Positions 13,697-61,259 of a DNA stretch of 64,000 bases are shown one piece after another. Position 1 is the first letter of the stretch. Every line of letters begins with the position of its first letter. The stretch covers positions 124,001 to 188,000 of the forward strand of contig JAWMAR010001182.1 in the NCBI GenBank assembly GCA_036785375.1, in the 5' to 3' direction. This DNA comes from Leucoraja ocellata (lineage: Eukaryota). Made by a program: the position numbers and the translations under genes. The notes beneath the pieces are model-generated. The model was given only the letters and a program-made list of their open reading frames with translations. It was not told the DNA's origin and did no database searches.

Positions 13697-14610
13697 TTAT
13701 TTTACACCCGGTTTTCTAGATTTTATTAAACTTACAGTTAGGGTGAAGGGGTACATGAGTACCTGGAGCAGCTGCTCTCTGAACCTCCTCTGGGTCACGG
13801 TGTAAATGAGCGTGTTTGTGCAGGTGTTCAACAGTTGTAGCAGAATTCCAGTTTGTTCAAATGTTGCAAATTGGTTCCTCAACCCCCTGACCCGAAATGC
13901 ATTAGTAATTCGATAGAAAAAGAAATATGCTACATTTGTGCCCCAGAGCACCATAAAACTGCTGGAGATTGCAAGGAGTAAAATTACGGACCGTCTGCGG
14001 TTTGCGATCTCGGGGTCCTCACTACTGAGATCGCGGAGTTTTCTGCGGACACGACTGGCCACTAAAATGCGTCTGACTGTGAGCACGTTCATCAGCATAA
14101 TTAAACAAAATGGAATGACTGGGACGAGCACGTGTTGAGTCCAGGAAAATGCTATCCAAGAGGATTGGCCATAAAACTGATATCTTATTAGGCAGCCCCA
14201 CTGTATACCCTGCTGATCCCTGAAATAATAATTGTACGCAAAGGGCCAGGGGACGTTCAGTAAACAGAAGAACGCAGTTAGGGTCACTATAACCATCAGC
14301 GCGGTTCTCTCGGTGCAGTATCTGGTTCTCAGATTCTGAGTGGAAATGGCGACAAAGCGATCAAATGTGAAAGCGACCGTGAGCCAAACAGAACAGGCAA
14401 CGGCCGCGGGAGCGAGGAACATAATGGACCTGCACACAGTATAGTGGAAGAGGAATGAGTGCGCCCAGTAAAGGTCGGCAATCCGTTGTAATATCACTTC
14501 GCAGACGATCACCAAGAGGTCCACTGTCGCCATGGCCACCAGGTACCGAGTGGTGCATTTGGAGAGACCACAATTTCTGCTGGACAGGATCACAATCGCC
14601 AACAAGTTCA
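13697..14610 (-). CDS. GPR139-like class A GPCR gene A, exon 2 (spliced product 327 aa)
   Basis: ORF 13697-14659 supplies the end of TM1 to TM7: TM1 Asn, AxxD in TM2, Cys at the top of TM3 plus ECL2 Cys (WGC), TFDRF, NTLIY. Acceptor gttttctcttttccAG at 14611-14612; the first 16 aa of the listed ORF are intronic. Confidence 0.93.
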
Positions 14611-14899
14611 CTGGAAAAGAGAAAACTGTCGTTACATGTAAGGGAAACACGATGCTCATTTGGAGGCGGGGGTCAAACTTGGGTACGCTTTGCTTATTTT
14701 TTTGAAAACAACTAGCCTACATACAAACATGGGTGCGTGCTAAGGAGCTGTGCGGATTACGTAGCAGCGGTCTACGCAGGCAACGTAAGCTGTCTCCCAG
14801 CCACACTTGTTACACCGCAGACTGCATATTGCAGCAACGTGTCCGCATCAGATGCCATCCTCCTGGACCTAAACCCTTCCTGGGAACTGCCGAGCAGCA

Positions 14900-15930
14900 A
14901 GGAGTCGAAAGTCAGATTCCCATTCCCAACACTACTCCCATCCAACCCATTGATAAGCTCCCGAGCCTAGCGATCAGCACACCAGCTTCTAATGTTCTAA
15001 TGGACGTACTTTAATCAGTGAGTAGTAGTTATAACACCACTTCCACAATAAATCTCTACAACGGTGCCGCATAAAGACGTCTCATCCGGTTCCGGGTTCT
15101 TCCTCCCATGCACTCACGACCCCGCGGCCAAATGCGGCTGTGACTGCTCCCACAAGCTCCCAGATGATGACAATCTCTATGTCAGTATCAACGAGGCCAA
15201 GGAGCAAGTTATCGATATCAGGAAATGCGGTGGAACACCGGTCAGCAACAACGGTGCTGAAGTGGAAGTGATTGAGGACGTCAAGTTCCTCGTAGTTAAT
15301 ATTACCAACGATGTTTATTGGACGACCACATCGAAGGGACAGCCAGCGGCAGACCAACACCTTTACTGGGAAGTCTGAGGAACTTTGACCTGCCTCTGAT
15401 GACTCAAACATGCTGCGGCAGATTAGCATAGAACGCATACTGTTGGGTGTATCACAGCTTGTTGTGGGGATATATGCCTTATAAAGAGTAAATTGCACAG
15501 GGTTCTGGAAGACGCCGGGTCGTTATTACGAAATAGACTCCGCACTGTTGACTGCGTTTGCACTTCACAATCCCTTGGAAACGGAAACATGTCTCACCCC
15601 GCTCATTCCTTCTACTCCCTGCACCCGTCGGGCAGAAGATGCAGAAAGCTTAAACCTCGCACCACCAGACTCCAGAACGGATTATTACCCTCTGTTGTCA
15701 GGCTTCTGAGCCGCTCTTCCATATGCGAGGGTATTGCCGTTTCACCTCTATCCCCTTGCGGACATTGGGTTTTGTGGATGTGATACGCTGCAGTGCGCTC
15801 CCAAACTGGAACTACGCTCTGCACTCTGATTTCCCCTCTTACACTACCTGTTACTGAGATTGATTTGTTTGTACTGATATTTAATAGTATTTGATCTAAT
15901 TTGGATTTCTTGCAAACCAATGCTTTTTGC
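14900..15930 (+). mobile_element. Degenerate Rex/Babar-type LINE RT/3' remnant in intron of gene A (copies about 28330-29310, 43490-45430, 61560-62500)
   Basis: Remnants resembling VNKTKELVIDFRK and NGAEVEV.EDFKFLGVNI across the copies. Confidence 0.7.
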
Positions 15931-16348
15931 AGCTCCCGGAAAGACATTACAACAATGCACCTAAACCTGAATCTGAAGAGAATTATCCTGTGACATATCC
16001 AATGAACGACGAACGATCCAGTAGCTTAACAAAGGAATATGTGACGTTTCTGGTCGAGACCCTTCTTCAGACTGATCAGTCTCGACCCGAAACGTCACCT
16101 ATTCCTTCGCTTCATAGATGCCGCTTCAACCGCTGTCTAATTCTCCAGCATTTTTGTCTAGCTTCGATTTCTCCAGCAACTGCAGTCATTTCTTACACAA
16201 ACATTTTCTAGTTAATACCGCCCTAACCTGAAGAATGCAGTCTAGCATCCCCGTGTTTCGCACACTATTTACACTTTACCTTTAACAATGTTTTTATCAA
16301 TACATCATCCCACGTCTCAGTCCCACTTACTGCGTTCCCTTCACCTAC

Positions 16349-16418
16349 CGGGTACTCCGATTGTTGCCAGAATTGGATAATAATAATATTCAACTTCCAA
16401 GTGCCGCTTCCAACCCAT
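16349..16418 (-). CDS. GPR139-like GPCR gene A, exon 1 (MGWKRHLEVEYYYYPILATIGVP)
   Basis: ATG at 16418, 70 nt, GTAGGT donor. G+TG joins in frame to VNLLAIVIL and completes TM1; 70+914=984 nt. Confidence 0.88.
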
Positions 16419-19400
16419 TTTCCTTCAAGCCGTCCGCAGTTATGCAGTGCAAAACTTATAGGAGTCAAAGTGAGAAGTCAAACAGCGCTATATTTATATT
16501 CTTAGAAAAAACTGAAGGACTGCGTGCGTTCACCTCCCCGCGGAAATGTATTGTGGACCGTTGAACAAATAGTTTGCTCCCATATCTTATCCATGTACCT
16601 GTCGCATTATGTCTTAAACGTTGCAACAGTACCTGCCTCAACTACATCCTTGAAGACTGGGTCCAAGAAGACTGAAAAAAGTGAATTTATTAAGGGGAAC
16701 AAGAAAATGGCAGACGAGTTGAACAGTTACTTTGGGAGGACACAAACAATATGTTCGCATTGATACCATTAATCTGGGGAGTCATCACTAGGGAGGACAC
16801 AAACAATTTTCCTGATGTAGTAGTGGCCAGAGGATCTGGGTTAACGAAGGAACTGAAGGAAATCCACATCAGGCATGAAATGGTGTTGGGTTGACTGAAG
16901 GGACTGATGGCTGATAAATCCCTAAGGCCTGATAGTCTGCATCCCATGGTACTTAAGTAAATGGCTTTAGAAATCGTGGTTGCATTGGTGATAATTTTCC
17001 AATGTTCTATAGATTCAGGATCAGTTCCTGTGGATTGGAGGGTAGCTAATGTTTTCCCACAGTTTAAGAAAGGCGGGAGAGATAAAACAGAGAATTATAG
17101 ACCAGTTAGCCGGACATCGGTGGTGGGGAAGATGCTGGAATCAATTATAAAAGACGAAATAGCCGCACATTTGGATCGCAGTAACAGGATCGGTCCGAGT
17201 CAGCATGGATTTACGAAGGGGAAATCACGCTTGACTAATGTTCTGGATTTTTTTTAAAGAAGGTAGTAGGGCAATGGACAAGGGTGAGCCTGTACATGTA
17301 GTGTACCTGGTCATTCATTTGTTTAGTTTTTTGTATAGTATTGTTTGTGTAATTGTATTTGTTTAGTTTACTTGAACTACACCAAACTAATGTAAACTAA
17401 CTAAACTACAACGCTGCACAAACAGGTGACCGGCAACAAGGCCATTAGTGAATGACTTTGCCAATTCAGCAAGATGGAGAAACTTAATAAGAACAGCGAG
17501 CTTTAGAGCCGCAGTTGCTCAGTTGCGCATGGTGGCTGGATTAGCGGGTATTAGATACAGTGAGAGATTGGTCATATTTGGATTTTTATCCCTCTGGAAC
17601 GTCGGAGATTGCGGGGACAACTGGTTGAGTTATGTAAACTTATGAGACCCGGTAGATTGTCAGAACTTTGATTTTCCCAGAATGGAAAAAAAATGCATCG
17701 AAGAGGGCACAGCTTTATGCTAAGAAGGGCAACATTGAAAGAAAATGTGCGGCGCAACGTTTTACACAAAGTGTGGCGAGTGTTTATAACGCGCTGCTGG
17801 TTAAGGCGGATACGATAGTAGAATGTAAAATAGTTTTGGATGGAGATATGATTCTGCAGGGAATGGAAGGATATTGATTACGCGCAGGTAGATCGGAGCT
17901 GGTCTTGGTATCGGGTCGACAGGAACATTGTGAACTAAAAATCTGTTCTTCAACTGATCCATCTAAATGCTGACCCGAGCACCATGTTTGATCGGGCTAT
18001 GCTGGCTTCACCTTGCATTAAACCTTGTTCCCTTATCATGTATCTATAATACTGCGAATGGCTAGATTACAATAATGTGTTGTCTTTCTGCTGACTGTAC
18101 AGCACGCAACAGAAGTTTTCTAATGTACCTGGCTACACGAGGCAATAAACTAAACTGAATGTTCTTTTGCTGTATGTTCTATATTCTAAGTTCCAACACA
18201 GACAGAGTCCGGACCAGGTTTAGGAAGTTTGGTATTAATTTCGCAATGGCTACAGGAAGTCCGAAGAGGTTCAGTGATTGTGAACAGTGATTGTGCCTGC
18301 TGTTAAACGAAGTATTTTATTTTCAGGCAATGGCCGAACCCTGCATGTTTGGCTTATACAGCAGAACATGCGCCGAATTTGGACCAGCTGCAATAGGGCG
18401 TAGTTTAATAAAGTACAAAATACCGCAGATACTGAACATGTACAAATGCACAGAAAATAAAATAAATCTCCAGCGGCAAGGCAGCAGTTGTAAGGCGACA
18501 AATAAGTTTAATGTTCTAGGCTATTTATTTTTCTACAAAACGGAATTCGCCAGCTGCAATCAGTAAAGTGTATTTGAATGGTGACTGAACGGAGATTGGC
18601 ATAATATTAGCAATAAAAATACATTCATGTACTGAAGAGAGAGTTCGGTCCTAATGTTAAAAAGCAGATTCGATGTAATAAGGCATTGGAGCACTGTCAT
18701 ATTCTGCAGCGTTTCTACAGTTGCACCTCTGCTGTTGCAGATACACATTGACCATGACGGGTTACCGAGGATTTATCTGACCCCAGAAGTTGCGGAACTT
18801 CTTTCAATAAAGGAACAAAAACACCAGGTTTAGTCGATATAGTCCGAGATCTATTTATTATTAACACTCAAATTATGAACACTTAGGAATGTGTTGGCCA
18901 AGTTCACCAGGTGGATATTTCTTCGTCGTTGAAGAACAGGAGCAATATGAAACAAGCAAGAGATTCTGTTTCAACAATTTTAATTATTCAAACCGAACCA
19001 AGGTGCTCTCCGATCAATTCGAATCAACCCCGCATATATTTTGACTGCGTTTTAATAGGATTTATGTTAAGAACAAAATCGTTTTTCATCTTTTGTTCTT
19101 TCTATCTAAAAAGTACTTGGAAGAATAAGGAATTGTGAAGAGGAAGCCAGAAACATATCATTATCTTTACTTCCGGTGACAACTCTTCCATCTTCTAGTT
19201 ACATTTCAGTTACAGGATACTGACTTTGAAAGGGAAACAATCTAACTTCGAGCCGTTTCTGAAGAGAGCGAATTATAAAGTGAACTATAATACATTGCTT
19301 GAGTTTCCTTAAGTTTAGTTTACAGAGTGAAAACTGTCCATTCGCTCCATCACGTCCGCGCCGACCAGCAGGTACCCGCACACAGCGTCTCTCCTGCACA

Positions 19401-20964
19401 CAGGAACAGTTACAGAGACCAATTAAACGGCAAACGTGCATGTGTCTCGAATGTGCCCAAAGCGCGGCCAAATTTGATTTAGCCGCGGCCAAACCCAGCA
19501 GTAGGCAGCCCACCGCCGACAGAGTATCACCGGCTAGGCCAGACCTAAACTGCTTATCACCTATAACTGATGACCGGCCCGGTATGACTGATTCGCCCGC
19601 TGCAGAACGGGGACGGAGGCCACGCGCCGCAGCGGTAATGTTGCTGTCCGAAACAGCCAGAGATCCGGGTTTGATCCTGACCACGGTTGTTGCCTTCACG
19701 GAGTTTGTCCGTTGTCCGCGTGACGTGTGGTCCGTTCTCCAAGAAGCGTTTTATCCTGGTCTCGAATACTCCACAGACGTGTCAGTTTGTAGTTTCGGTA
19801 AAATGGTAAAATATCTCCAGTTGCAGAATTGTGTCAGTGTGCGGGAATCGCTGATCAACGCGGACTTTGTGAGCCGATGGGCCTGGTTCCGCGCTGTATC
19901 CCTAAACGAAATATATGTGTTTATATACATATTATTGCACAAAGGTAGGAGCAGCAGTTTACAAGATGTGAATCAAGTACTGTGGTCTGGGTACTTACAT
20001 GGAAAATAGATGGCCGCAAAAATAAAAGAGTGGTGGGCATGGAACGGCCGAGGACCGGAATTGTGGACCTATTGGCATTCAGAGCTGAAGGTTTGGCTGT
20101 TGGATTCAAAGTATGGAGGGTTTGATTGTAAATAATGTTATGGAAAGATTTGTGCAGAAGTTGCCGCCAAGTCAAAAGTCACCAATCAACTCAAATCCTC
20201 ATAAATGTCTTAGCGGGCACTAACAGCAGAAATATTCCGTATTTTTCGTAATCGGTTACATTTTAATTGGAAGCATCCTCCATCATTCTCAATGTCTTCC
20301 CAACTGCGGAGTTCTACGCACGATGCACACGAGTCTGAGAATCATCCTTTCAAGCTTTTTCCTCTTGTTTTCATTCTCAACACTTTGCATCTGCAGAACT
20401 GCAGCGTCTGCGCAGGGGTAATGGATTGGGAGATAAATGCCAGACCAATTTGCTCTATGACCAATCACAAACGCGAACCTTCTAGCCTTACCGTCCCCGA
20501 CTACTAAACTCTGCTTCCTTAAACTATAATTAGATTCCCTTGCTTGTATGAACTCCATCCGCCGCCGTTGGTTGCAACTGGTGAAGAGCGAATATTTTAT
20601 GTACATTGTAAACTCATTATATTAAGCAGATTTGTAACCTGAGTACTTACATGAGCAATCGGAGATGGGTTTAGAGAAGAATAGTGTGATCAGGGAGAAG
20701 CGTCGGGGGGCGGAATAGTAGAGTTATTGCCATTCAGTTGGAGGTGTGACGGCTGGACACGATGGATGCAGAGTTTGTTAGTAAATCTAATTCAGAACAT
20801 TACTGTGGAAAGTGGAGCAATGTCACAAATGGACATTGATCCTAATGGATAACACAACTGGCGCAAGCAGCTGAAAGAAAACAAATGTTGTCCCCAAAAT
20901 ATTTTGTTATCAGTTTATATATCTATAAAAGTTTATTTCATCATTCTCCATTTTTTGCTGTTAC

Positions 20965-27101: not shown

Positions 27102-28015
27102 TTAATTTACACCTGGTGTTCTCGATTTTATTAAACTTACAGTTAGGGTGAAGGGGTACATCAGTACCTGGAGCAGATGCTCTCTGAACCTCCTCTGGGT
27201 CACGGTGTAAATGAGCGTGTTTGTGCAGGTGTTCAACAGTTGTAGCAGAATTCCAGTTTGTTCAAAGGTTGGAAATGGGTTCTTCAACCCCCTGGACATA
27301 AATGCACTCGTAATTCGATATAAAACGAAATATGCTACATTTGTGCCCCAGAGCAGCATAAAACTGCTGGAAATTGCAAGGAGTAAAATTACGGACCGTC
27401 TGCGGTTTGCGATCTCGGGGTCCTCATTACTGAGATCGCGGAGTTTTCTGCGGACACGACTGGCCACTAAAATGCGCCTGACAGTGAGCACGTTCATCAT
27501 CATAATCAAACAAAATGGAATGACTGGGACTAGCAGCTGTTGAGTCCAGGAAAATGCTATCCACGAGGATAGGCTGTAGAAGTGATATCGTATTTGGCAA
27601 CCCCACAGTATATCCTGCTTATCCCTGACATAATAATTGTACGCAAACGGCCAGGGGACGTTCAGTAAACAGAAGAACGCAGTTAGGGTCACTATAACCA
27701 CCAGCGCGGTTCTCTCGGTGCAGTATCTGGTTCTCAGATTCTGAGTGGAAATGGCCACAAAGCGATCAAATGTGAAAGCGACCGTGAGCCAAACAGAACA
27801 GGCAACGGCCGCGGGAGCGAGGAACATAATGGACCTGCACATAGTATTGTGAAAGAGGAAAGAGTACATCCAGTAAAGGTCGGCAATCCGATGTAATATC
27901 ACTTCGCAGACGATCACGAAGAGGTCCACTGTCGCCATGGCCACCAGGTACCGAGTGGTGCATTTGGAGAGGCCACAATTTCTGCGGGACAGGATCACAA
28001 TCGCCAGCAGGTTCA
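27102..28015 (-). CDS. GPR139-like class A GPCR gene B, exon 2
   Basis: Intact paralog, about 89% aa identical to gene A by manual count; same acceptor; 914 nt. Confidence 0.93.
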
Positions 28016-29724: not shown

Positions 29725-29794
29725 CGGGTACGCCGATTGCTGCCAGAATTGGATAATAATAATATTCAACTGTCAAGTGCCGCTTCCAACTCAT
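29725..29794 (-). CDS. GPR139-like GPCR gene B, exon 1 (MSWKRHLTVEYYYYPILAAIGVP)
   Basis: ATG at 29794, 70 nt, GTAGGT donor, phase 1. Confidence 0.88.
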
Positions 29795-34656: not shown

Positions 34657-37320
34657 ATATAACCATATAACCATATAACAATTACAGCACGGAAACAGGC
34701 CATCTCGGCCCTACAAGTCCATGCCGAACAATTTTTTTCCCCTTAGTCCCACCTGCCTGCACTCGTACCATAACCCTCCATTCCCTTCTCATCCATATGC
34801 CTATCCAATTTATTTTTAAATGATACCAATGAACCTGCCTCCACCACTTCCACTGGGAGCTCATTCCACACCGCCACCACTCTCTGCGTAAAGAAGTTCC
34901 CCCTCATATTACCCCTAAACTTCTGTCCCTTAATTCTGAAGTCATGTCCTCTTGTTTGAATCTTCCCTATTCTCAAAGGGAAAAGCTTGTCCACATCAAA
35001 TATGTCTATCCCTCTCATCATTTTAAAGACCTATATCAGGTCCCCCCTTAACCTTCTGCGCTCCAAAGAATAAAGCCCTAACTTGTTCAACCTTTCTCTG
35101 TAACTTAGTTGCTGAAACCCAGGCAACATTCTAGTAAATCTCCTCTGTACTCTCTCTATTTTGTTGACATCCTTCCTATAATTTGGCGACCAAAATTGTA
35201 CACCATACTCCAGATTTGGCCTCACCAATGCCTTGTACAATTTTAACATTACATCCCAGCTTCTATACTCAACGCTCTGATTTATAAAGGCTAGCATACC
35301 AAAAGCTTTCTTTACCACCCTATCTATATGAGATTCCACCTTCAAGGAACTATGCACGGTTATACCCAGATCCCTCTGTTCAACTGTATTCTTCAATTCC
35401 CTACCATTTACCATGTACCTCCTATTTTGATTTGTCCTGCCAAGGTGTAGCACCTCACATTTATCAGCATTAAACTCCATCTGCCATCTTTCAGCCCATT
35501 TTTCCAAATGGCCTAAATCACTCTGTAGACTTTGGAAATCCTCTTCATTATCCACAACACCCCCTATCTTGGTATCATCTGCATACTTACTAATCCAATT
35601 TACCACACCTTCATCCAGATCATTGATGTACATGACAAACAACAAAGGACCCAACACAGATCCCCGAGGCACCCCGCTAGTCACCTGCCTCCAACCCGAT
35701 AAACAGCCATCCACCATTACCCTCTGGCTTCTCCCATTCAGCCACTGTTGAATCCATCTTGCTATTCCTGCATTTATACCCAACAGTTGAACCTTCTTAA
35801 CCAACCTTCCATGAGGAACCTTGTCAAAGGCCTTACTAAAGTCCATATAGACAACATCCACTGCTTTACGCTCGTCAATTTCCCTAGTAACCTCTTCAAA
35901 AAATTCAAGAAGATTAGTCAAACATGACCTTCCAGGCACAAATCCATGTTGACTGTTCCTAATCAGACCCTGTTTATCTAGATGCTTATATATATTATCT
36001 CTAAGTATCTTTTCCATTAATTTGCCCACCACTGAAGTCAAACTAACAGGTCTATAATTGCTAGGTTTACTCTTAGAACCCTTTTTAAACAATGGAACAA
36101 CATGCGCAGTACGCCAATCCTCGGGGACTATTCCCGTTCCTAATGACATTTGAAATATTTCTGTCATAGCCCCGGCTATTTCTACACTAACTTCCCTCAA
36201 TGTCCTAGGGAATATCCTGTCAGGACCTGGAGACTTATCCACTTTTATATTTTTCAAAAGTGTCAGTACTTATTTTACTTTGAACCTCATAGTATCCATA
36301 GCTACTCTACTAGTTTCCCTTACCTCACATAATTCAATATCCTTCTCCTTGGTTAATACCGAAGAAAAAAAATTGTTCAATATCTCCCCCATCTCTTTTG
36401 GCTCTGCAGATAGCTGTCCACTCTGTCTCTCCAATGGACCAATTTTGTCCCTCCTTATCCTTTTGCTATTAATATAGCTGTAGAAACCCTTTGGATTGAC
36501 TTTCACCTTACTTGCCAAAGCAACCTCATATCTTCTTTTAGCTTTTCTAATTTCTTTCTTAAGATTCTTTTTACATTCCTTATACTCCTCAAGCACCTCA
36601 TTTACTTCATGCTGCCTATAATTATTGTAGATCTCCCTCTTTTTCCGAACAAGATGTCCAATTTCCCTTGAAAACCAGGGCTCTTTCCAATTTTTACTGT
36701 TTCCTTTCAACCGAACAGGAACATAAAGATTATGTACTCTTAAAATTTCCCCTTTAAATGTCCTCCATTTCTCTTCTACATCTTTCCCATAAAACAAAAT
36801 GTCCCAGTTCACTCCTTTTAAATCATCTCGCATCGCATCAAAGTTAGCCTTTCTCCAATCAAAAATCTCAACCCTAGGTCCAGTTCTGACCCTCTCCATA
36901 GTTATATTGAAACTAATGGTATTGTGATCACTGGACCCGAAGTGCTCCCCAACGCATACCTCCGCCACCTGTCCAGTCTCATTTCCTAACAGGAGGTCCA
37001 GCACTGCCCCTCCTCTAGTAGGTACCTCTATGTGTTGCTGCAAAAAACTATCCTGCACACATTTTACAAACTCCAACCCATCCAGCCCATTTACAGAATG
37101 TGTTTCCCAGTCTATGTGTGGAAAGTTGAAATCTCCCACAATCACTACCTTGTGCTTACTACTAATCTCTGCTATCTCCTTACATATTTGCTCTTCCAGT
37201 TCTCGTTCCCCGTTTGGCGGTCTATAATACACCCCTATAAGTGTTGCTACAACTTTCCCACTTCTCAATTCCACCCAAATAGCCTCCCTAGATGAGCCCT
37301 CCAATCTATCATGCCAAAGC
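34657..37320 (-). mobile_element. Young 5'-truncated CR1 LINE (partial APE, complete RT, 3' UTR, 8-nt tail repeat)
   Basis: ORFs 36270-37304, 35031-36257 and 34743-35021 share one frame separated by two stops; YADD motif; (ATATAACC)n tail; empty sites at about 5352 and 19030. Confidence 0.97.
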
Positions 37321-38780
37321 CTCCCCGCATATATTTCTGTCTGCGATTTAATAGGATTTGTGTTGAGAACAAACTAGTTTTTCATCTTTTGTTCTTTCAA
37401 TCTAAAAAGTACTTGGAAGAATAAAGAATTGTGAAGAGGAAGACAGAAACATATCATTATCTTTACTTCCGGTGACAACTCTTCCATCTGCTAGTTACAT
37501 TTCAGTTACACGATACTGACTTTGAAAGGGAAACAATCTAATTCGAGCCGTTTCTGAAGAGAGCGAATTATAAAGTGAACTATAATACATTGCTTGAGTT
37601 TCCTTAAGTTTGGTTTACAGAGTGAAAACTGTCCCTTCGCTCCATCACGTCCGCGCCGTCCGGCAAGTACCCGCACACAGCCTCTCTCCTGTACACAGGA
37701 ACAGTTACAGAGACCAATTAAACGGCAAACCTGCATGTGTCTCGAATGTGTCCAAAGCGCGGCCAAATTTGATTTAGCCGCAGCCAAACCCAGCAGTAGG
37801 CAGCCCACCGCCGACAGAGTATCACCGGCTTGGCCAGACCTCTATCGCCTAAAAAGGATGACCAGCCCGGTATGACTGCTTCGCCCGCTGCAGAACGGGG
37901 ACGGGGACCACGCGCCGCAGCGGTAATGTTGCTGTCCGAAACAGCCAGAGATCCGGGTTTGATCCTGATCACGGTTGTTCCCGGCACGGAATTTGTCCGT
38001 TATCCGCGTGGCGAGTTGTCCGTTCTCCAAGAAGCGTTTTGTCCTGGTCTCTTCGAATACTCCAAAGACGTATCAGTTTGTAGTTTCGGTAAAATGGTAA
38101 AATATCTCCAGTGCGCAGAATTGTGTTAGTGTGCGGGAATCGCTGAGCAACGCGGACTTTATGAGCCGAGGGGCCTGTTTCCGCGCTGTATCCCTAAACG
38201 AAATGTATGTGTTTATATGCATATTATTGCACAAATTATAGTAGGAGAAGCTGTTTACAAGATGTGAATCAAGTATTGTGGTCTGGGTACTTACATGGAA
38301 AATAGATGGCCGCAAATAGAAAAGAGTGGTGGGCATGGAACGGTTGTGGAACGGAATTGTGGACCTATTGGCATTGAGAGCTGAAGGCTTGGCTGTTGCA
38401 TTCAAAGTATGGAGGGTTTGATTGTAAATAATGTTATGGAAAGATTTGTGCAGAAGTTGCCGCCAAGTTAAAAGTCACCAATCAACCCTGACCCTCATAA
38501 ATATCTTAGCTGGCACTAACAACAGAAAGATTCCTTGTTTTTCGTAATCAGTTACATTTTATATTGGAAGCCTCTTCCATCATTCTCAATGTCTTCCCAA
38601 CTGCGGAGTTCTACGCACGATGCACACGAGTCCGAGAATCATCCTTTCAAGCTGTTTCCCTTTGATTTCATTCTCAACACTTCGCATCTGCAGAACTTCA
38701 GCGTTTACCTGGGGTAATGGCTTGGGAGATAAATGCCAGACCAATTTGCTGTATGACCAATCACAAACGCGAACCTTCTC

Positions 38781-42251: not shown

Positions 42252-43165
42252 TTATTTTACACCAGGTGTTCTCGATTTTATTAAACTTACAGTTAGGGTG
42301 AAGGGGTACATGAGTACCTGGAGCAGATGCTCCCGGAACCTCCTCTGGGTCACGGTGTAAATGAGAGTGTTTGTGCAGGTGTTCAACAGTTGTAGCAGAA
42401 TTCCAGTTTGTTCAAATGTTGCAAATTGGTTCCTCAACCCCCTGACCCAAAATGCATTCGTAATTCGATAGAAAACGAAATATGCTACATTTGTGCCCCA
42501 TAGCACCATAAAACTGCTGGAGATTGCAAGGAGTAAAATTACGGACCGTCTGCGGTTTGCGATCTCGGGGTCCTCATTACTGAGATCGTGGAGTTTTCTG
42601 CGGACACGACTGGCCACTAAAATGCGTCTGACTGTGAGCACGTTCATCAGCATAATTAAACAAAATGGAATGACTGGGACTAGCAGCTGTTGAGTCCAGG
42701 AAAATGCTATCCACGAGGATAGGCTATAAAACTGATATCTTATTAGGCAACCCCACTGTATACCCTGCTGATCCCTTTCATAATAATTGTACGCAAACGG
42801 CCAGGGGACGTTCAGTAAACAGAAGAACGCAGTTAGGGTCACTATAACCACCAGCGCGGTTCTCTCGGTGCAGTATCTGGTTCTCAGATTCTGAGTGGAA
42901 ATGGCCACAAAACGATCAAATGTGAAAGCGACCGTGAGCCAAACAGAACAGGCAACGGCCGCGGGAGCGAGGAACATAATGGACCTGCACACAGTATTGT
43001 GGAGTAAGAATGTGTCCCACCAGTAAAGGTCGGCAATCCGATGTAATATCACTTCGCAGACAATCACCGAGAGGTCCGCCGTCGCCATGGCCACCAGGTA
43101 CCGAGTGGTGCATTTGGAGAGACCACAATTTATGCGCGACAGGATCACAATCGCCAACAGGTTCA
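42252..43165 (-). CDS. GPR139-like class A GPCR gene C, exon 2
   Basis: Intact paralogous ORF, same acceptor, 914 nt. Confidence 0.93.
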
Positions 43166-44775: not shown

Positions 44776-44806
<31 letters not shown>

Positions 44807-44835
44807 ATACCACATCAAAAAATAAATTAAAACCA
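44063..44835 (-). mobile_element. GC-rich non-autonomous retroposon with simple-repeat tail, in intron of gene C
   Basis: Absent from the other introns; inverted similarity to 55875-56702; (CAATACA)n end. Confidence 0.65.
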
Positions 44836-45830: not shown

Positions 45831-45900
45831 CTGGTATTGCGATTGCTGCTAGATTTGGATAATAATAATATTCAACTGCCAAGTGCCGCATCCAACTCAT
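45831..45900 (-). CDS. GPR139-like GPCR gene C, exon 1 (MSWMRHLAVEYYYYPNLAAIAIP)
   Basis: ATG at 45900, 70 nt, CAG|GTAGGT donor, phase 1. Confidence 0.86.
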
Positions 45901-50150: not shown

Positions 50151-50389
50151 AACATGACTTGTTGTTCTTCGATCTTGGCATAGAGTTCTAGTGTCATACA
50201 GCGTGAAAAATAGTCCCCCGGCCCAACCTGCCCACGATCAAAAATGTACCCCATCTGCACACCCCCACCTGCCTACGATTGGCCCATATTCCTGTTAACA
50301 TATCGTATCCACGTCCCTGTTGCAATATTTCTTAAACGTTGCGACAGTACCTGCCTCAACTACCATCACCGGCAGCATGCTCCATACAC

Positions 50390-52759: not shown

Positions 52760-53040
52760 CGGTTCAGTGGCGCAGCTGCTGCCTCAAAGCTTCAGAGATC
52801 CGGGATCAATCCTGTCCTCGGGTAATGTCTGAGTGGAGTTTTCCCGTCTCGCTGTGACCGTGTCGGTATCGTCCAGGTGCTCTGATTTCCTCCCGTATCC
52901 AAAACACGTGTGGTTATTTTAGGTGAATTGGCCTGTGTAAACATGCACCAAGTGTGTGAGGAATAGATGGAAAAGTGGAATAACATGGAACGAAAGTGAT
53001 CGGGTCATCGATGGTTGGCGTGGACTCGGTGGGGTGAGGT
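52760..53040 (+). mobile_element. tRNA-derived SINE, degraded
   Basis: gtggcgcagctg...gagatccgggatcaatcc head and tttcctccc core, as in 5930-6230. Confidence 0.65.
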
Positions 53041-53309
53041 CCTCAGGAATTAATTTCATTGGTCAAAACATGGCAGATGGAGGGGAGTGGAACTGAAAAC
53101 TGATTGAAATTGGCTCCTTGCACATCCTTCCGGCTTTGCGTGTAATTTACTTCGTATAAAAACCACGTGCATTTCTCAATGAAAACATCAAAACGTCGTA
53201 ATGACTCCCATGTTCTCGACAGGGCCGAATCGACTGTAGATCTGACCACTGCCTGTCGCCTTTGGACGGATGCCGATAATACTGTGGTGTTTTTGTTTTA
53301 GAATCAAGG

Positions 53310-53700
53310 CATCATAGAGTCTTACAGCGTTGAAACATACCCTTCGGCCCAGCATGCCAACACCGGCCAACATGTTCCATCCACACCAGTCCTACCCGCA
53401 AGCGTTTCGCCCATATCCCTCAAAATCAGTTCTATTCATGTACATGTCAATGTTCTTTTTAAACTTTGCTATTTTACCTGCCTTAACTACTACCTCCGCC
53501 AGCGCGTTCCATGCGTCAAGCCCCCTTTGTATGAAAAAGTTACCCTTCTGGTCTCTATTAAATCTTCCTCCCCACTCAACTTCAATCTATGTTCTCTGTT
53601 TGTCGATCCCCCAATCCGGCCAAGAGACTCTGTGAGTTTACCCGATCTATTCCATTTGTGAATATGCACCTTATTATTGTTTCGCTTAACAATCTCAGGC
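53310..53700 (-). mobile_element. Old CR1 3' end
   Basis: Similar to the CR1 3' UTR pieces at 2790-2970 and 6810-7130. Confidence 0.6.
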
Positions 53701-53858
53701 TTAGCACCTTCACTACCGGTTTCCAAGAACAAATATGCCTTCCTCAATCAAGGTTTGTTCAAGCGGATGCGACTACTCTCGGGGGGGGGGGGGGGGTGAG
53801 CTGGATTCCGGCTACGTGTATTTCAATTGGCTGAGACCCCGTTGCCCACCCACATCTC

Positions 53859-53869
53859 TGACGACATCA
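53859..53869 (+). promoter_or_regulatory. Possible CRE-like element of the TCR V promoter
   Basis: TGACGACATCA about 120 nt upstream of the leader ATG; TCR V promoters often carry CRE-like motifs, but the match is imperfect. Confidence 0.3.
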
Positions 53870-53983
53870 CTGGGGCCACAGGGCAGTGACAGGGAGACCA
53901 GCAGACGCCCTTCGACTGAGAAAACGATCCAGTTTGTGTCTCTTCAAGTTTAGAACTCAGCTAGTACAGAGTGAACGGGTAAA

Positions 53984-54029
53984 ATGCGTTTCCTCGGCAT
54001 CTGTGTTGTGTGGGGAGCGTTTCTCACAG
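53984..54029 (+). CDS. TRAV/DV: T-cell receptor alpha/delta V segment, leader exon (MRFLGICVVWGAFLT)
   Basis: ATG 53984, hydrophobic 15-codon leader, phase-1 donor G|GTAATT, 118-nt intron to acceptor tttacAG (54146-54147). Confidence 0.85.
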
Positions 54030-54147
54030 GTAATTCTGGATCAATATTTTCAGTTCCCCTCGCCCTCCGCAGTGAGATTTTGGCTTGAGAAGTGCAATCT
54101 CATGGCACTCCGGTGTCTGTTACTATCTCAATATATTTATTTTACAG

Positions 54148-54454
54148 TCACTATTCACGGAGAATCTGTCACACAGCCACTACCCTCGGCGACGAAGACA
54201 AAAGGAGAAGCGGTGACTTTAACCTGTAACTATGATACCACATGGACAGCATATACTTTATTCTGGTACCGGCAATATCCAGGTATGCAGCCCGAGTTTA
54301 CTATGAGCAGAGACACCTACAACAATGAAGATAAGGCCCAATACGCTGACACTCGTTTCTCTATTGAGCTCAATACCGCGACTAAGTTCACCAGCTTGAG
54401 TATCTCAGGGCTGGATCTCAGCGACTCTGCAGTCTATTACTGCGCACTGAGGCG
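54148..54454 (+). CDS. TRAV/DV: T-cell receptor alpha/delta variable gene segment, V exon (germline, unrearranged)
   Basis: Ig V-set signature ESVTQ...VTLTCNY...LFWYRQYPG...RFS...SLSISGLDLSDSAVYYCALR with both Cys and the core Trp; no stops; directly followed by an RSS. Alpha versus delta cannot be resolved from the V alone. Confidence 0.93.
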
Positions 54455-54492
54455 CACAGTGATGGAAACAAGTTAAGCCCCTTACAAAAACA
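54455..54492 (+). promoter_or_regulatory. Recombination signal sequence (23-type RSS, 22-nt spacer)
   Basis: Perfect heptamer CACAGTG 54455-54461, 22-nt spacer, nonamer ACAAAAACA 54484-54492 (8/9 match to ACAAAAACC). Confidence 0.92.
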
Positions 54493-55334
54493 TCGCCTTT
54501 GTCTTGCTCTCTGTTCCGCTGATGCGGTTGGATGTGCCTGCTTTCCTGTTCTCTCTCATTTGGCGGTTTGCTTTCATTGTGTGCAGGTGTCCTGGTGGTT
54601 TTATTGTTTCCAACTGCGAGCTGCTTCTCCGGAATCCGTTTCCATAACTTTAGCCGCTAGCTGCAGAGAATTACAAGAGCTCTTATGACAGGGGGATAGA
54701 ACATGTGACCAGAGATCTGAAACGTGTGTTCTGTTTCATTCTCTCTCAGTCCTGGATAACCTGGTTAATAACTGCAGATTTTACAATTTTAGTTATTAAA
54801 ACGAGGGTGTCTCTGGATGGAGGATGGGCTGGCCCGGAATTGTCACAATTACGTTACCCAATTCCACTTCACAGACACCCTGACAGACTTTCCAATTTCA
54901 GGTGATGATTGACCTTCACTAATAGCAGCAAAATCGTCCCGGACGCGGGAAGAATAGGAAGTCAATAAAACAAACTATTTACCGCAAATGGCGGATAAGC
55001 TGTAATGCAGATGGATATTTCACCATTGGGCCCTACTGAGTAATCCACATCTGTGTCGCAGGATATATCACTGGACACCAGATACATAGCTACAGCAACT
55101 GCTGAAATAAATCCCCTGATGGATATTCACGTGAGGGCATTAAAATTAAACACTTTAAATACGCATGGCGCCTTTCCCAATGGGCGACTGCACAAATGTG
55201 CAAATACCTTAAGGCCGTGATTACTGTTTTTGCTCAATGATCCGGTACTGAATTACTTCTCGACATCGCTGTAGTGTTGGAATTCCTCCACAACAGGAAC
55301 ATGACAACACCTCCACTAGAAGGTTGTTCCTTCG

Positions 55335-55750
55335 GTAGAATTTAGTAGATTGAGGGGGGATCTTATGGAAACTTATACAATTCTTAAGGGGTTGGACAGG
55401 CTAGATTGAGGAAGATTATTCCCGATGTTGGGGAAGTCCTGAACAAGGGGTCACAGTTTAAGGATAAGAGGGAAGTCTTTTAGGACACTCATTATTTTAC
55501 ACAAAGAGTGGTGAATCTGTGGAAATTTCTGCCAGAGAAGGTAGTTGAGGCCAGTTCATTGGCTATATTTAAGATGCAGTTAGATGTGGCCCTTGTGGCT
55601 AAAGGGATCAGGGGGTATTGAGAGGAGACAGGTACAGGATACTGAGTTTGGATGATCAGCCATGACCATATCGAATGACGGTGCAGGCTCGAAGGGCCGA
55701 ATGGCCTACTCCAGCACCTATTTTCTATGTTTCTATGTTTCTATGTTCCA
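55335..55750 (+). mobile_element. CR1 3' end with (TTTCTATG)n tail
   Basis: Reverse complement of the 10235-10640 type sequence. Confidence 0.85.
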
Positions 55751-55874
55751 GATCATAGCTCTACTATACTACCTCCATGGACTTCGCTGAAAGGACAGGT
55801 TGAACAGGCTAGGAATAAATTAGGCGGCGTAGTGTCGTAACTGTCGGCAACGATTTTGCAAGTTCTCACGGTTG

Positions 55875-56702
55875 GACAAGAAGGCGGCGCCTCGCGGCAA
55901 TGGCCTCCGCAGTCTGTCTCTCTTTTCTTTCTTTTTGTCTTGTTAGATGTATGTTTTGGTTTAGTTTTATATTAGTTTTAGATGTGTATATGTGGGCAGG
56001 AGGGGGGGGGGTGCAGGGGGGATTTTTAAATATCTTCCCCGTTCCTGGACTCGACCTTTTCCCTCTCGAGTGTCCGTTGTTGTTGGGGCCTAACATCGTG
56101 CAGCAGGCGGCCTCCAACCGGAATCGACCTGGGGCTCCAGTCGCACAGCCTGCGGACTCGCTATCGCGGAGCTGGCCGACATCGGTGCACGGAGCGCTGC
56201 GGTGGCGCGCGGTTGCGATCCGACTACGGCGCTTCGGAGGCTCCGGCTGCAGGCCCCGTGGAAGGTAACATCGGGAGCTCGCGGGTCCCTTGTGGGGGAC
56301 CACTTTTCGGAGCTCCCGCAACGGCAACTTCTCCCGCCCGAATCAAGGGGTTTAAATCGACCGGTAGCAGGGCCTTATATCGCCCGGCACGGCGTAAACG
56401 AACGCGGGACTTACCATGGTCCGCCGGGGTCTCGAACATCAAAAGCTTCGATCAGCTTGATGCAGCAGTTTGACTGCTTGACTGCGGGACAAGAATAAAG
56501 AACAGAGAACAGGGAAGAGATGAGACCTTTGCCTTCCATCACAATGAGGAGGTGTTTGGAGATTCAATGTGATGGATGTTTGTGTGGAATTGTGCTAATT
56601 GTGTGTGTTTTGTTGTTGTTGTTCTGTCTGCAGGAACGTAATTTCGTCCGAACCTACTTTAAAATGACAATACACATAATTCTGATTCCGATTCTGATTC
56701 TG
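55875..56702 (+). mobile_element. GC-rich non-autonomous retroposon with (ATTCTG)n tail, apparently splitting a SINE that continues to about 56900
   Basis: Inverted similarity to 44063-44835; 3' aaatgacaata plus microsatellite tail; SINE core resumes at about 56703. Confidence 0.65.
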
Positions 56703-57259
56703 ATGACTGCCTGGGTTTTCTCCGCGTGCTCCGGTTTCCTCCCAGACTCGAAGCACGTACAGAAATATAGTTTATTTTTAACGTCTATAAATAGTAAATT
56801 GTTTCCAGCTTGTAGTAGAGTGCTACTGTATGGGGTGATCGATGGTAAGCGCAGATTGTGTGGGACGAAGGGCCTGTGTGCACAGCGGATCTCTGATATC
56901 TTGAGCCTATGTTCCTTGGGCGCACGAGGCAGAGTGTATGAAGTCATTAGCGGATTGGACAACGTGAATCACACCTGAATCACAGTGGGAAACTTTATTC
57001 TGCTGTGTGGGGATGTTTTATGTTGGACTCTATCGTGTGTTGTGTTCTTTATTTTATTGTATGGCTGTATGTTGACCACACATTTCACTGTACCAACTGG
57101 TACATGAGACAAGTAAATGCATATTGTATCTTGTCCTTTACCCAGAGTTGGAGAATCAAGAACCAGAGGAATTAGGTTAAAGGTGAGAGGGGAAATGTTT
57201 AACAGGAACGGGAGGGAAACTTTTGCACTTGAGAAGGTGATGGGTATCACTTGGTGTCC

Positions 57260-58750
57260 TTGTTCATCACTCACTGAAAATAAGCATGCGGGTACAGCAG
57301 GCAGTGAAGAAAGCTAATTGCACGTTGGCCTTCATAACAAGAGGAATTGGGTATTGGAGTAAAGAAGCCATTCTGCAGTTGTGCAGGGCCCTAGTGAGGC
57401 CACACCAGGAGTATTGTGTGCAGTTTCGGTCTCCAGATTTGAGGAACGACATTCTTGCTATTGAAGAAGTGCACCGTAGGTTCACGAGGTTAATTCCCGG
57501 GATGGCGGGACTGTCATATGTGGATATAACGGAGCGGCTGGGCTTGTATACACTGGAATTTAGTATGCTGAGATTAGCTCTTTTTGAAACATAAAATATT
57601 ATTAAGGGATTGGGCACGTTGGAGGCAGGAACCATGTTCTCGATGTTGAGAGGGTCCAGGCCTAGGGACCACAGTTTAAGTATAAGGTGTAGGCTATTTA
57701 GCAATCGAGAGAGCACCCTAGCTTAAAAAGTAACACATGTGTTTGTGCAATAAATTAGTTTATGGGTCTGGAAGCGGAGAGAGAAGGTCCTGCAGATATG
57801 ATAGTTGGAAATTAGCTGATAAGCTTCTTTTCAATAGACAATAAGTGCAGGAGTACGCCATTCGGCCCTTCGAGCCACCACCGCCATTCAATGTGATCAA
57901 GGTTGATCATCCACAATCAGTACCCCGTTCCTGTCTTCTCCCCTTTTCCCCAGGCTCCACTATCTTTAAGAGACCTATCTAGTTCTCTCTTGACAGTATC
58001 CAGAGAACCGGCCTCCACAGACTCAGTACTCCATGTGTGAACATTTGTTTCGGCATCTCCATCTAAATGGCTTACCCCTTATTATTAAACCGTGGACCTG
58101 GTTCTGGGCTCTCCCAACATCGGGAACATGTTTCCTGCCTCGAGCGCGTCCAAACCCTCAATAACATTATATGTTTCAAAAAGAACCCCTCTCATCCTTC
58201 TAAATTCTAATAAATACAAGGCCAGTCACTCCATTATTTCAACATCTGCCAGACCAGCCATCCCGGTTAGAACCGACCGTTGGGAAAATCAAAGTTCTGA
58301 CAGTCTACCCTGTAGACGCCTATCATGAACTAATGTAAACTAACTAAGCTAGCACGCTGTACTAATTGGTGACCAGTAATAAAGTCATTAGTGAATGTCT
58401 TTGCCAACTAAGCAAGATGGACACCTTTAATAAGAACAGCGTGTTTTGGAGTCGCAGTTGCTCATTTACCGGAGTGGTGGCTGGATTAGCGGTGCAGGGA
58501 GAGATTGGTCATATTTGGATTCTTTCCCACTGGAATGTCGGAGATTGCAGGAAGATCTGGTTGAAGTATAGAAACATAGAAACATAGAAATTAGGTGCAT
58601 GAGTAGGCCATTCGGCCCTTCGAGCCTGCACGGCCATTCAATATGATCATGGCTGATCATCCAACTCAGTATCCCGTACCTGCCTTCTCTCCATACCCCC
58701 TGATCCCCTTAGCCACAAGGGCCACATCTAACTCCCTCTTAAATATAGTA
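57260..58750. mobile_element. Cluster of CR1 3' fragments (about 57260-57700 +, 57830-58265 -, 58567-58750 -)
   Basis: VQQAVKKAN...LVRPH.EYCVQF and CR1 3' UTR matches. Confidence 0.8.
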
Positions 58751-59534
58751 TATAACGTTATGAGAGGCTACGATAGGGTCTGCTCCCCCAACGCACCCGT
58801 TCCCTACCCGTAGCCCCCACAGGAGGCGTGGTCCCCCAACTCAAGCCGTTCCCGAACGTAAGTGAAGCTGATCACTGCTAGCCAACACATTGTGACGTCA
58901 CCAGTTGAAGCTAGTCGTTTTCAATTCAGTCTTTTGATTTTTTTTTTTACTTTAATCAGTAATGGCGAGAAATAAAGCATAACATGTTCAGCGAAGGTAT
59001 TTTCGGCCTCGAGAGGGAAAATGTCAATCAGAATATGTAAAAATGTAACCGTTACCACGTCGGGAGCGGACGATTTGGGGAGAGAGTACTCAACTCAAAT
59101 TTGGAGCTATACAAATCTCAGCCGCCATCGGTGAAGAAAATAAATTAATGAATTTCTCACATTTCCTTGCCCTGCAGGAGGAGATAAATCCGACTGTGAG
59201 CACTCATTAGAATCTCCATTAGGCAGAGTTCCAGCGTCGGCGCTGCATCAATGGAGGTGGGACATTAATGCAAATCGATTCAGCATATCTTTACCACACA
59301 GGTGAACTTACTCACTTTACCGCCCTCTACTGGACACTCGCTTGTTACTCATTGCTTGCATTAAAAATATAATTAGTAATGCCAACTTGTATGAATAACA
59401 CCCACTCACTACCTTTGGCTGCATCTGGTACTGAATTACTAATTGTACTGAAAACCGAAAGCATCTGTAAGAGGCAATGAGGCATTACATTCAGTGCGAG
59501 AAACAAATATAAAATGGAACTCTCATTAACGTAA

Positions 59535-60082
59535 TGTAAAGTTGGTCAGATCCTAACCAACTTTTACCGCTGTACCATCGAAAGCATCCTGATCACCTGC
59601 TTCACGGTATGGTACAGCAGTTGCACCGTAGCGGACAGGAAGGCACTACAACGGGTGGTGAAACCCGCTCAGTATATCATCGGTGCCCCGCTCCCTGCCA
59701 TGGATGCCCTGCACCGAAAACGGTGTCTGAGACGGGCCGGGAAGTTCATCAAAGACCCCTCCCACCCTAACCATGGACTGTTTGCCCACCTCCAATGAGG
59801 GAGGCGGTACAGGAGCCTCGGGTCTCGTACTAGTAGGAGGAGCTTCTACAAGAACACTATCACATTGCTGAACTCGGAGTCCCGCCGATAGATTCTCCAG
59901 TCTCTCCGTCCGCATTGTTTGCTTATTCTGTATGTTTTATTTCTATATTGCACTATTACTGCGGACTGAAACTAAACTGCATTTCGTTGTACCCGTACTT
60001 GTATCTGTGCAATGACAATAAAGTTGAATTGAATTGAATTGAATTGAATTGAATTGAATTGAATTGTATTGAATTGAATTGA
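59535..60082 (+). mobile_element. Rex/Babar-type LINE 3' fragment with (GAATT)n tail, downstream of gene D
   Basis: Encodes ILTNFYRCTIESIL...WY...DRKALQRVVK; tail 60024-60082; site empty in genes A-C; possible AATGT target duplication. Confidence 0.85.
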
Positions 60083-60345
60083 AAATGTTGCAGGAAGAAT
60101 TGTATTAAACACATTGGTGCACTGGGCATTTACATACGTAACCATGGAACGTCTCAAAGAATTGTAGAGTAATGGAGCATGCAATGTTTAGGACCATAAC
60201 TCTCAGTCTGTTTTCATTGCGTGCTGGAGACGTTGCCGCTGGATTCAAAATAAGGTGGAAACAGTTAACGGCGAGGCTCAATTCCGGAATCATTGGAGAT
60301 CTGCTCCAGTACAACATAGCACTCGGTGGGATTAGTAATGTAATG

Positions 60346-61259
60346 TTATTTTACACCAGGTGTTCTCGATTTTATTAAACTTACAGTTCGGTTGAAGGGG
60401 TACATGAGTACCTGGAGCAGCTGCTCTCTGAACCTCCTCTGGGTCACGGTGTAAATGAGCGTGTTTGTGCAGGTGTTCAACAGTTGTAGCAGAATTCCAG
60501 TTTGTTCAAATGTTGCAAATTGGTTCATCAACCCCCTGACCCAAAATGCATTCGTAATTCGATAGACAACGAAATATGCTACATTTGTGCCCCAGAGCAC
60601 CATAAAACTGCTGGAGATTGCAAGGAGTAAAATTACGGACCGTCTGCGGTTTGCGATCTCGGGGTCCTCATTACTGAGATCCCGGAGTTTTCTGCGGACA
60701 CGACTGGCCACTAAAATGCGTCTGACTGTGAGCACGTTCATCAGCATAATTAAACAAAATGGAATGACTGAGACTAGCAGCTGTTGAGTCCAGGAAAATG
60801 CTATCCACGAGGATACGCTGTAAAACTGATATTTTATTAGGCAGCCCCACTGTATACCCTGCAGATCACTGAAATAATAATTGTACGCAAAGGGCCAGGG
60901 GACGTTCAGTAAACAGAAGAACGCAGTTAGGGTCACTATAACCACCAGCGCGGTTCTCTCGGTGCAGTATCTGGTTCTCAGATTCTGAGTGGAAATGGCC
61001 ACAAAGCGATCAAATGTGAAAGCAACCGTGAGCCAAACAGAACAGGCAACGGCCGCTGGAGCGAGGAACATAATGGACCTGCACACAGTATTGTGTAAGA
61101 GGAATGAGTGCACCCAGTAAACGTCGGCAATCCGATGTAATATCACTTCGCAGACGATCACCAAGAGGTCCGCCGACGCCATGGCCACCAGGAACCGAGT
61201 GGTGCATTTGGAGAGACCACAATTTCTGCGCGACAGGATCACAATCGCCAACAAGTTCA
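60346..61259 (-). CDS. GPR139-like class A GPCR gene D, exon 2
   Basis: Intact paralogous ORF, same acceptor, 914 nt. Confidence 0.93.

What the first reader, a model, noticed from the sequence alone, without database searches (positions are those of the whole stretch)
13697..61259. Paralog differences concentrate on the extracellular, ligand-facing surface
ECL1: YWAHSFLFHY / YWMYSFLFHN / YWWDTFLLHN / YWVHSFLLHN. ECL2: YFRDQQGIQWGCL / YVRDKQDILWGCQ / YERDQQGIQWGCL / YFSDLQGIQWGCL. ECL3: NAFRVRGLRNQFA / SAFMSRGLKNPFP / NAFWVRGLRNQFA / NAFWVRGLMNQFA. TM3-ICL2 (CRSIMF...TERTAL) and TM7 are invariant. By manual count about 23 of 32 A-versus-B exon-2 substitutions fall in loops or outer helix ends, and the residue after YW differs in all four copies. 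Inference: diversifying selection on ligand specificity with shared G-protein coupling.
Basis: partly seen in the sequence, partly recalled or inferred. Interest (0 to 1): 0.72.

Follow-up and report, generated by a model that had tools for sequence, protein, structure and literature searches.

The report
Skate receptor copies diversify outer loops
Four near-identical copies of an orphan cell-surface receptor gene from a likely skate differ mostly in the loops outside the cell, probably because selection keeps new or swapped-in loop variants while the core stays uniform, but only a few loop positions carry a firm signal and the binding partner is untested.

Summary
Four intact two-exon class A GPCR genes of the chondrichthyan 'probable GPR139' family carry every quoted motif; 19 of 45 variable residues lie in the three extracellular loops, which are 15% of the protein (P=8e-7).

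The inference is partly supported. The proposed M7/M8 test looks decisive (2dL 140) but gene conversion inflates it: 20 of 24 neutral simulations were nominally significant in the matching M1a/M2a test.

Selection still looks likely. Loop piN is twice the synonymous diversity elsewhere in the gene (0 of 150 neutral simulations reach this). In young duplicates the loops diverge over three times more than the intron. Codons 49, 50 and 140 stay flagged in the strictest model. A sister subfamily has loop piN/piS 0.110/0.016.

The deep pocket is fixed within the subfamily and varies across the family; the rim varies. Ligand, tissue and G protein are untested. The cluster lies among TCR alpha/delta-type V segments. 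The scan noted this family, loop pattern and location before, on other DNA.

The parts
16349..16418 (-). Copy A exon 1 (ATG, short N-terminus, first half of TM1; phase-1 donor)
13697..14610 (-). Copy A exon 2 (rest of TM1 to stop; Pfam 7tm_1)
14444..14467 (-). Copy A ECL1 (residues 48-55); codons 49-50 at 14459-14464 are the best-supported selected sites
14165..14236 (-). Copy A ECL2 (residues 125-148); codon 140 (14189-14191, next to the ECL2 cysteine) is robustly flagged, 129 and 142 less so
13868..13906 (-). Copy A ECL3 (residues 235-247); codons 240 and 246 and neighbouring 234 and 248 are flagged in simpler models only
29725..29794 (-). Copy B exon 1
27102..28015 (-). Copy B exon 2
45831..45900 (-). 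Copy C exon 1; open, but with an Asn in TM1 and three other changes
42252..43165 (-). Copy C exon 2
62920..62989 (-). Copy D exon 1
60346..61259 (-). Copy D exon 2
986..1055 (-). Exon 1 of a fifth copy whose exon 2 (L013) lies just before the window
53984..54492 (+). Open TCR alpha/delta-type V segment between copies C and D: leader 53984-54029, intron, V exon 54148-54454, heptamer 54455, 22-nt spacer, nonamer 54484

Best explanation
These are tandem, recently duplicated class A GPCR genes that exchange sequence with each other, and selection likely keeps the helical core and deep pocket uniform while favouring new or imported variants on the extracellular rim, so that each copy probably presents a different docking surface to a peptide- or protein-sized partner. 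Shown: intact genes, the 7TM fold, a recombination signal, loop-concentrated divergence at both nonsynonymous and synonymous sites, and a fixed deep pocket within the subfamily. Inferred: conversion tracts landing in loops are retained and carry silent changes with them, which would explain loop dN/dS near 1 despite excess divergence. Also inferred: point-mutation selection at a few codons (49, 50, 140). Untested: the partner, the tissue and the G protein.
For: Region dN/dS: TM 0.35, intracellular 0.55, loops 0.87. Loop piN 0.128 against piS 0.065 in the rest of the gene (bootstrap P=0.001); the ratio 1.97 was reached by 0 of 150 neutral simulations with uniform or homology-dependent conversion (maximum 1.45). 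Young C128/C3159 clade, 11 of 15 copies with an alignable intron: intron pi 0.024, non-loop piS 0.013, loop piN 0.080, loop piS 0.090. That excess stays significant when neutral imports are allowed to be twice as divergent in loops (P=0.006 for N, 0.018 for S; 15 copies). 13 of 45 loop codons are invariant, so an average near 1 implies some sites above 1. Loop-only M1a/M2a 2dL is 35.1 against at most 21.3 in 38 null simulations. Codon 49 has six amino acids and no synonymous change. Sister subfamily (13 sequences, about 65% identical to copy A): loop piN 0.110, piS 0.016; 34 N and 2 S minimum changes, P=0.002; flagged sites include 49, 136, 147, 240, 244 and 247. Recombination test P=0.001. 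Loop polymorphisms of the young clade are shared with the other cluster more often than non-loop ones (15 of 33 against 8 of 40, P=0.025). CpG density is lower in loops (0.039 against about 0.10). Deep-pocket entropy is 0.09 bits within the subfamily and 1.65 across 96 family members, where other TM sites give 0.87.
Against: Loop piN equals loop piS in this subfamily (P=0.45) and in the four window copies (P=0.55). With site-to-site rate variation, 2dL falls to 31.1 and 1 of 4 null simulations exceeded it (34.5); that null fits better than M2a without rate variation. On one set of contigs only (C471+C128, 23 sequences) the loop-only 2dL is 20.3, inside the null range. The number of codons with five or more amino acids (6) is not unusual against the nulls (means 3.6-14.9). 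A null with fully neutral loops and doubled loop mutation rate gives a similar diversity ratio (0.168/0.093 against observed 0.136/0.062). Among distant pairs, loop divergence only matches the intron (0.150 against 0.149). My selection simulations gave a mean loop/non-loop piS of 1.1, not the observed 1.9. The sister-subfamily result rests partly on only two synonymous changes.
Confidence: 0.62

Rival explanations
1. Relaxed constraint plus concerted evolution. Loops drift at the neutral rate, while gene conversion, favoured where it restores the working core, homogenises the helices and lowers their synonymous divergence. No loop variant is advantageous.
For: Loop dN/dS 0.87, not different from 1. 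Overall intron divergence (0.104) is close to loop piS (0.124), and fourfold sites outside the loops are lower at 0.062. 20 of 24 neutral-conversion simulations gave nominally significant site tests. The rate-variation null removes most of the signal.
Against: Loops exceed the intron more than threefold in young duplicates. Homology-dependent conversion simulations did not reproduce the loop excess. Sister-subfamily loop piN exceeds both its loop piS and its non-loop piS (P=0.002 and 0.011). Codons 49, 50 and 140 persist in every model.
Confidence: 0.22
2. The selection is real, but it is escape rather than ligand tuning. All copies keep one ligand in the conserved deep pocket and vary the exposed rim to evade pathogen toxins, inhibitors or entry proteins. 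This is a variant of the best explanation and overlaps with it.
For: The deep pocket is fixed and the rim variable. In FPR1/FPR2 the selected sites are in extracellular loops and affect binding of bacterial proteins (10.1101/2021.08.02.454796, passages seen). The genes lie within an immune locus.
Against: No pathogen binder or immune-cell expression is shown. The pocket is highly variable across the wider family, which fits a ligand repertoire.
Confidence: 0.25
3. The loop codons sit in local mutation hot spots, which raises both dN and dS.
For: piS is high even at amino-acid-invariant loop codons (0.163 against 0.03-0.07, 13 codons). A doubled-rate neutral null comes close to the observed diversity.
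Against: It needs three separate hot spots that coincide with protein topology. Loops are CpG-poor. The sister subfamily has low loop piS (0.016).
Confidence: 0.06

Closest known systems
Human GPR139 (PDB 7VUG/9M42; PMC8807744)
   Same: Best PDB sequence match of the family profile (E=1.5e-18, next 1.7e-12); source of the database name; class A fold, W6.48 kept.
   Different: GPR139 is described as highly conserved across vertebrates (PMC12208981 abstract). Its ligand residues E108, F109, H187, R244 and N271 (PMC8807744 part 1) align to A66, P67, Q158, N225 and I255 here. These genes have C3.25 and an ECL2 cysteine where the aligned GPR139 has none, and lack P6.50. At least 130 relatives occur in this one genome.
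Formyl peptide receptors FPR1/FPR2
   Same: Class A GPCRs with gene gain and loss whose high-dN/dS sites lie in extracellular loops (10.1101/2021.08.02.454796).
   Different: Not among the 60 best PDB sequence matches shown. Their selection was measured between orthologs; ligands and immune expression are known.
Chemosensory GPCR repertoires (OR, TAAR, V1R/ORA, V2R) and MRGPRs
   Same: Birth-and-death tandem arrays with diversified binding surfaces (recalled). Sharks have very small OR, ORA and TAAR sets (PMC11979771 passages).
   Different: Pfam finds only 7tm_1. No sensory expression is shown. Within this subfamily the variation is on the rim, not in the helical pocket where odorant receptors vary (recalled).
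Olfactory receptor genes among mammalian TRAV segments
   Same: GPCR genes interleaved with TCR alpha/delta V segments (the mammalian case is recalled and named in earlier notes e1-8587776 and e1-9078790).
   Different: A different receptor family. Here all 12 closest V matches lie 5.6-7.5 kb from a receptor copy, which suggests a co-duplicated unit.

Membership tests
Class A (rhodopsin-like) GPCR | 7tm_1 domain above the curated cut-off | tested here: met
   66.5-68.2 bits against cut-off 30.5 in 4 of 4 copies
Class A (rhodopsin-like) GPCR | Seven-helix fold plus helix 8 | tested here: met
   Exon-2 model, pLDDT 84.8; TM-score about 0.7 to peptide receptors
Class A (rhodopsin-like) GPCR | Micro-switch motifs (D2.50, D/ERY, CWxP, NPxxY) | tested here: inconclusive
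   D30, DRF, F218, W222, N265 and Y269 are present; prolines 6.50 and 7.50 are replaced by Thr (sequence; generic numbers are my own assignment)
Chondrichthyan 'probable GPR139' expansion | Close relatives so named from sharks, rays and chimaeras | tested here: met
   948 hits at E<=1e-20; of the 120 listed, 119 are named, all from cartilaginous fishes; best named hit 91% (Leucoraja erinacea). The other 828 were not shown.
GPR139/GPR142 orthologs | Ligand-pocket residues E3.32, F3.33, H5.43, R6.51, N7.38 | tested here: not met
   0 of 5 kept; only W6.48 is shared
GPR139/GPR142 orthologs | Activation by L-Trp/L-Phe, Gq/11 coupling | not testable with these tools
   Needs cell assays
GPR139/GPR142 orthologs | Phylogenetic placement and synteny with true GPR139 | not tested
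   No tree with named GPR139/142 orthologs was built
Positively selected receptor repertoire | Region-wide loop dN/dS above 1 | tested here: not met
   0.87 in this subfamily; met in the sister subfamily
Positively selected receptor repertoire | Site class with dN/dS above 1 that survives recombination and rate-variation controls | tested here: inconclusive
   Exceeds 24 of 24 whole-gene and 38 of 38 loop-only nulls; borderline against 4 nulls with rate variation
Chemosensory or immune receptor repertoire | Expression in sensory epithelium or leukocytes | not testable with these tools
   No RNA holder listed

The most novel reading that the evidence does not exclude
Cartilaginous fishes have an undescribed germline GPCR repertoire with two tiers. 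Subfamilies differ in the deep pocket and so in ligand class, while paralogs within a subfamily diversify and shuffle ECL1, ECL2 and ECL3 by selected gene conversion, as MHC genes do, to recognise variable foreign peptides or proteins. This subfamily sits in the TCR alpha/delta locus and serves lymphocytes.
Probability: 0.12. Interest if true: 0.9.

Novelty: new member of a known kind. Interest (0 to 1): 0.5.

Why it matters
Loop-focused selection in tandem GPCR arrays is a familiar pattern. This family, however, has over a hundred members per genome, and I found no paper on it. Sharks and skates are thought to have small classical chemoreceptor sets, so a diversifying repertoire outside those families would matter for their sensory or immune biology. 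The result gives specific residues to test (49, 50, 140, then 129, 234, 240). It also shows that a plain M7/M8 test on these paralogs would overstate selection.

Tried and rejected
codeml and MEME were not available; M0, M1a, M2a, M7, M8 and M8a were written in Python with fixed trees and one scale factor, and posteriors are naive empirical Bayes. The nominal p-values (1e-28 to 1e-31) were rejected as evidence once nulls showed inflation. The nulls carried more neutral diversity than the data (fourfold pi 0.09-0.11 against 0.062), so they were recalibrated. The 9-segment tree analysis timed out. The count of hypervariable codons did not separate data from nulls. The intron figures came from a misalignment (4 of 15 introns do not align) and were discarded; one search replaces them. 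Expression: no RNA holder listed. One polyA run of a related organism, of unknown tissue and 6% read, gave almost no exon coverage and no exon-joining read among the joints shown; I draw nothing from it. No model coordinates were on hand, so pocket positions were assigned by generic numbering, not by geometry. The ESM Atlas search with homologue P0002 returned only 7tm_1 and Srw-like clusters. Literature: (GPR139 or 'coupled receptor 139' with shark, cartilaginous fish, expansion or selection; TCR locus with GPCR; gene conversion with extracellular loops) listed no paper on this family. The library lacks most subscription journals, and no supplementary files were read; gene-family tables in genome-paper supplements could hold it. 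Three method or precedent papers were not held and are not used. Dropped before counting: L012 (early stop), L021 (6-nt deletion), L049 and L050 (81% outliers) and one partial match that was not fetched; 9 sequences within 4 nt of another were collapsed (46 to 37). Sister subfamily: 20 of 35 matches fetched; 6 with a 4-residue ECL2 deletion left out.
Full report
What is there. The window holds four complete copies of a two-exon class A GPCR gene on the minus strand, and exon 1 of a fifth. They lie in a tandem segmental duplication. All four pass Pfam 7tm_1. The exon-2 model shows the TM1 remainder, six further helices and helix 8 at pLDDT 84.8, and resembles peptide receptors. A protein search gave 948 relatives; the 119 named ones among the 120 shown are all from cartilaginous fishes, mostly 'probable G-protein coupled receptor 139', and the best named one is 91% identical and from little skate. 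The organism is therefore likely a skate. The own genome has at least 130 matches, 48 of them at 87% identity or more, on five contigs, some of which look like alternative haplotypes.

The observation. Every motif is present. The 32 A-versus-B differences, the four different residues at position 49 and the invariant TM3-ICL2 and TM7 are correct. With regions taken from the model, 21 of 32 differences fall in loops or outer helix ends (P=1.6e-5) and 19 of 45 variable columns in loops (P=7.8e-7). This is more than chance, but loops are less constrained in most GPCRs (general knowledge), so the enrichment alone does not show selection.

Region-level test. For 37 non-redundant paralogs (46 intact, collapsed at 4 nt or fewer; 299 codons), dN/dS is 0.87 in loops, 0.87 at outer helix ends, 0.35 in TM and 0.55 inside. 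Loop piN is 0.128 and loop piS 0.124 (P=0.45), while piS elsewhere is 0.065.

Site-level test and its inflation. My implementations give 2dL of 127.5 (M1a/M2a), 139.9 (M7/M8) and 122.8 (M8a/M8), with 8-9% of sites at omega about 4.5. The genes recombine (permutation P=0.001). Separate trees per segment lower 2dL to 80 and 69. Neutral simulations with conversion gave 0.1-38, or up to 87 with doubled loop mutation, and 20 of 24 passed the nominal 5% cut-off; the observed value in that pipeline, 125.7, exceeds all 24. Calibrated on loop codons alone, 2dL is 35.1 against at most 21.3 in 38 nulls; three simulations with true selection gave 22.8-33.2. Allowing each site its own overall rate cuts 2dL to 31.1, which 1 of 4 nulls exceeded, and leaves only codons 49, 50 and 140 above 0.95. 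On C471+C128 alone the loop-only value is 20.3. The firm core is therefore small. Codon 49 shows six amino acids with an invariant third base, and codon 50 shows seven.

Tree-free evidence. Loop piN is 1.97 times piS elsewhere. None of 150 neutral simulations, with uniform or homology-dependent conversion and loops partly or fully relaxed, exceeded 1.45; selection simulations averaged 1.3-1.4 and reached 1.9. In the young C128/C3159 clade the intron has pi 0.024 and non-loop piS 0.013, but the loops have piN 0.080 and piS 0.090 (11 copies). Duplicates start identical everywhere, so this excess needs loop-specific retention or loop-specific mutation. Loops are CpG-poor. Their polymorphisms are more often shared with the other cluster (15 of 33 against 8 of 40), and ECL1, ECL2 and ECL3 types occur in mixed combinations, with 21, 31 and 30 variants in 37 genes. 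A sister subfamily about 65% identical, on other contigs, shows loop piN 0.110 against piS 0.016 (P=0.002), with flagged sites at overlapping positions. Against this, distant pairs show loops no more diverged than the intron, the count of hypervariable codons is unremarkable, and none of my models reproduces the doubled loop piS on average; that part stays unexplained.

Where the variation sits. By generic numbering, the deep pocket (3.32, 3.33, 3.36, 5.39, 5.42, 6.48, 6.55, 7.36, 7.39, 7.42) is invariant in all 37 copies; among pocket positions only 2.61, 45.51, 6.51, 7.31 and 7.32 vary appreciably. Across 96 family members the 25 deep-pocket positions are about twice as variable as other TM sites (1.65 against 0.87 bits). 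Subfamilies thus differ in the pocket, and paralogs differ on the rim. That points to a large partner, by inference. ICL2 and the TM5-TM6 inner ends carry mostly singleton changes, which fits shared coupling, but positions 196, 279, 293 and 299 are polymorphic and coupling was not tested.

Context. An open TCR alpha/delta-type V segment with leader and recombination signal lies between copies C and D. On contig C471 more than 100 V matches span 1.7 kb to 1.31 Mb and the receptor matches lie among them from 0.50 to 1.23 Mb. The 12 closest V matches are each 5.6-7.5 kb from a receptor copy. No V match was listed on C128 or C10 among the 150 of 498 candidates scored, so the loop pattern does not appear to depend on this location. 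Earlier scan notes describe the interleaving, the family and, in another genome, loop selection. I reached the interleaving and the selection results before reading them, and they are not independent support.

Comparison and verdict. The genes work like other diversifying GPCR arrays such as FPRs, whose selected sites are in extracellular loops (passages). They are not GPR139 orthologs by pocket residues. Ten searches listed no paper on the family. I saw passages of PMC12294341, PMC12208981 (passages and section 8), PMC3221663 and PMC11979771; none of those passages describes it. Verdict: a real pattern, with selection on the outer rim likely (0.62) but weaker than a naive test suggests, and function open. 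New member of a known kind; interest 0.5.

Noticed in passing
window 53984-54492 (+): Open TCR alpha/delta-type V segment with a 22-nt RSS spacer, tail-to-tail with copy D; close V copies recur 5.6-7.5 kb from receptor genes, and the cluster lies inside the V array of contig C471.
   Followed up: partly
window 45831-45900 (-): Copy C exon 1 has an Asn in TM1 and a changed GVP motif; it may be impaired or functionally distinct.
   Followed up: no
L015-L020 and related C128/C3159 loci, ECL3 residue 247: Asn247 in 11 of 37 paralogs often creates an N-x-T sequon at the top of TM7; glycosylation so close to the membrane is doubtful.
   Followed up: no
L058-L062, L070 (C10, C2073): Six sister-subfamily genes share a 4-residue in-frame deletion in ECL2 just before the cysteine.
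   Followed up: no
exon-2 residues 289-299 in all copies: Helix 8/C-tail positions 290, 293 and 299 are flagged by site models and include Ser/Thr gains and losses; this may reflect phosphorylation differences or a conversion artefact.
   Followed up: partly
L012, L021: One paralog with a stop at exon-2 codon 3 and one with a 6-nt deletion in TM5; only 1 of the 48 close copies has an early stop.
   Followed up: no
window 35034-37373 (-), and other fragments: Long reverse-transcriptase/endonuclease-like ORFs of LINE type (label recalled, not tested) lie between the receptor copies.
   Followed up: no
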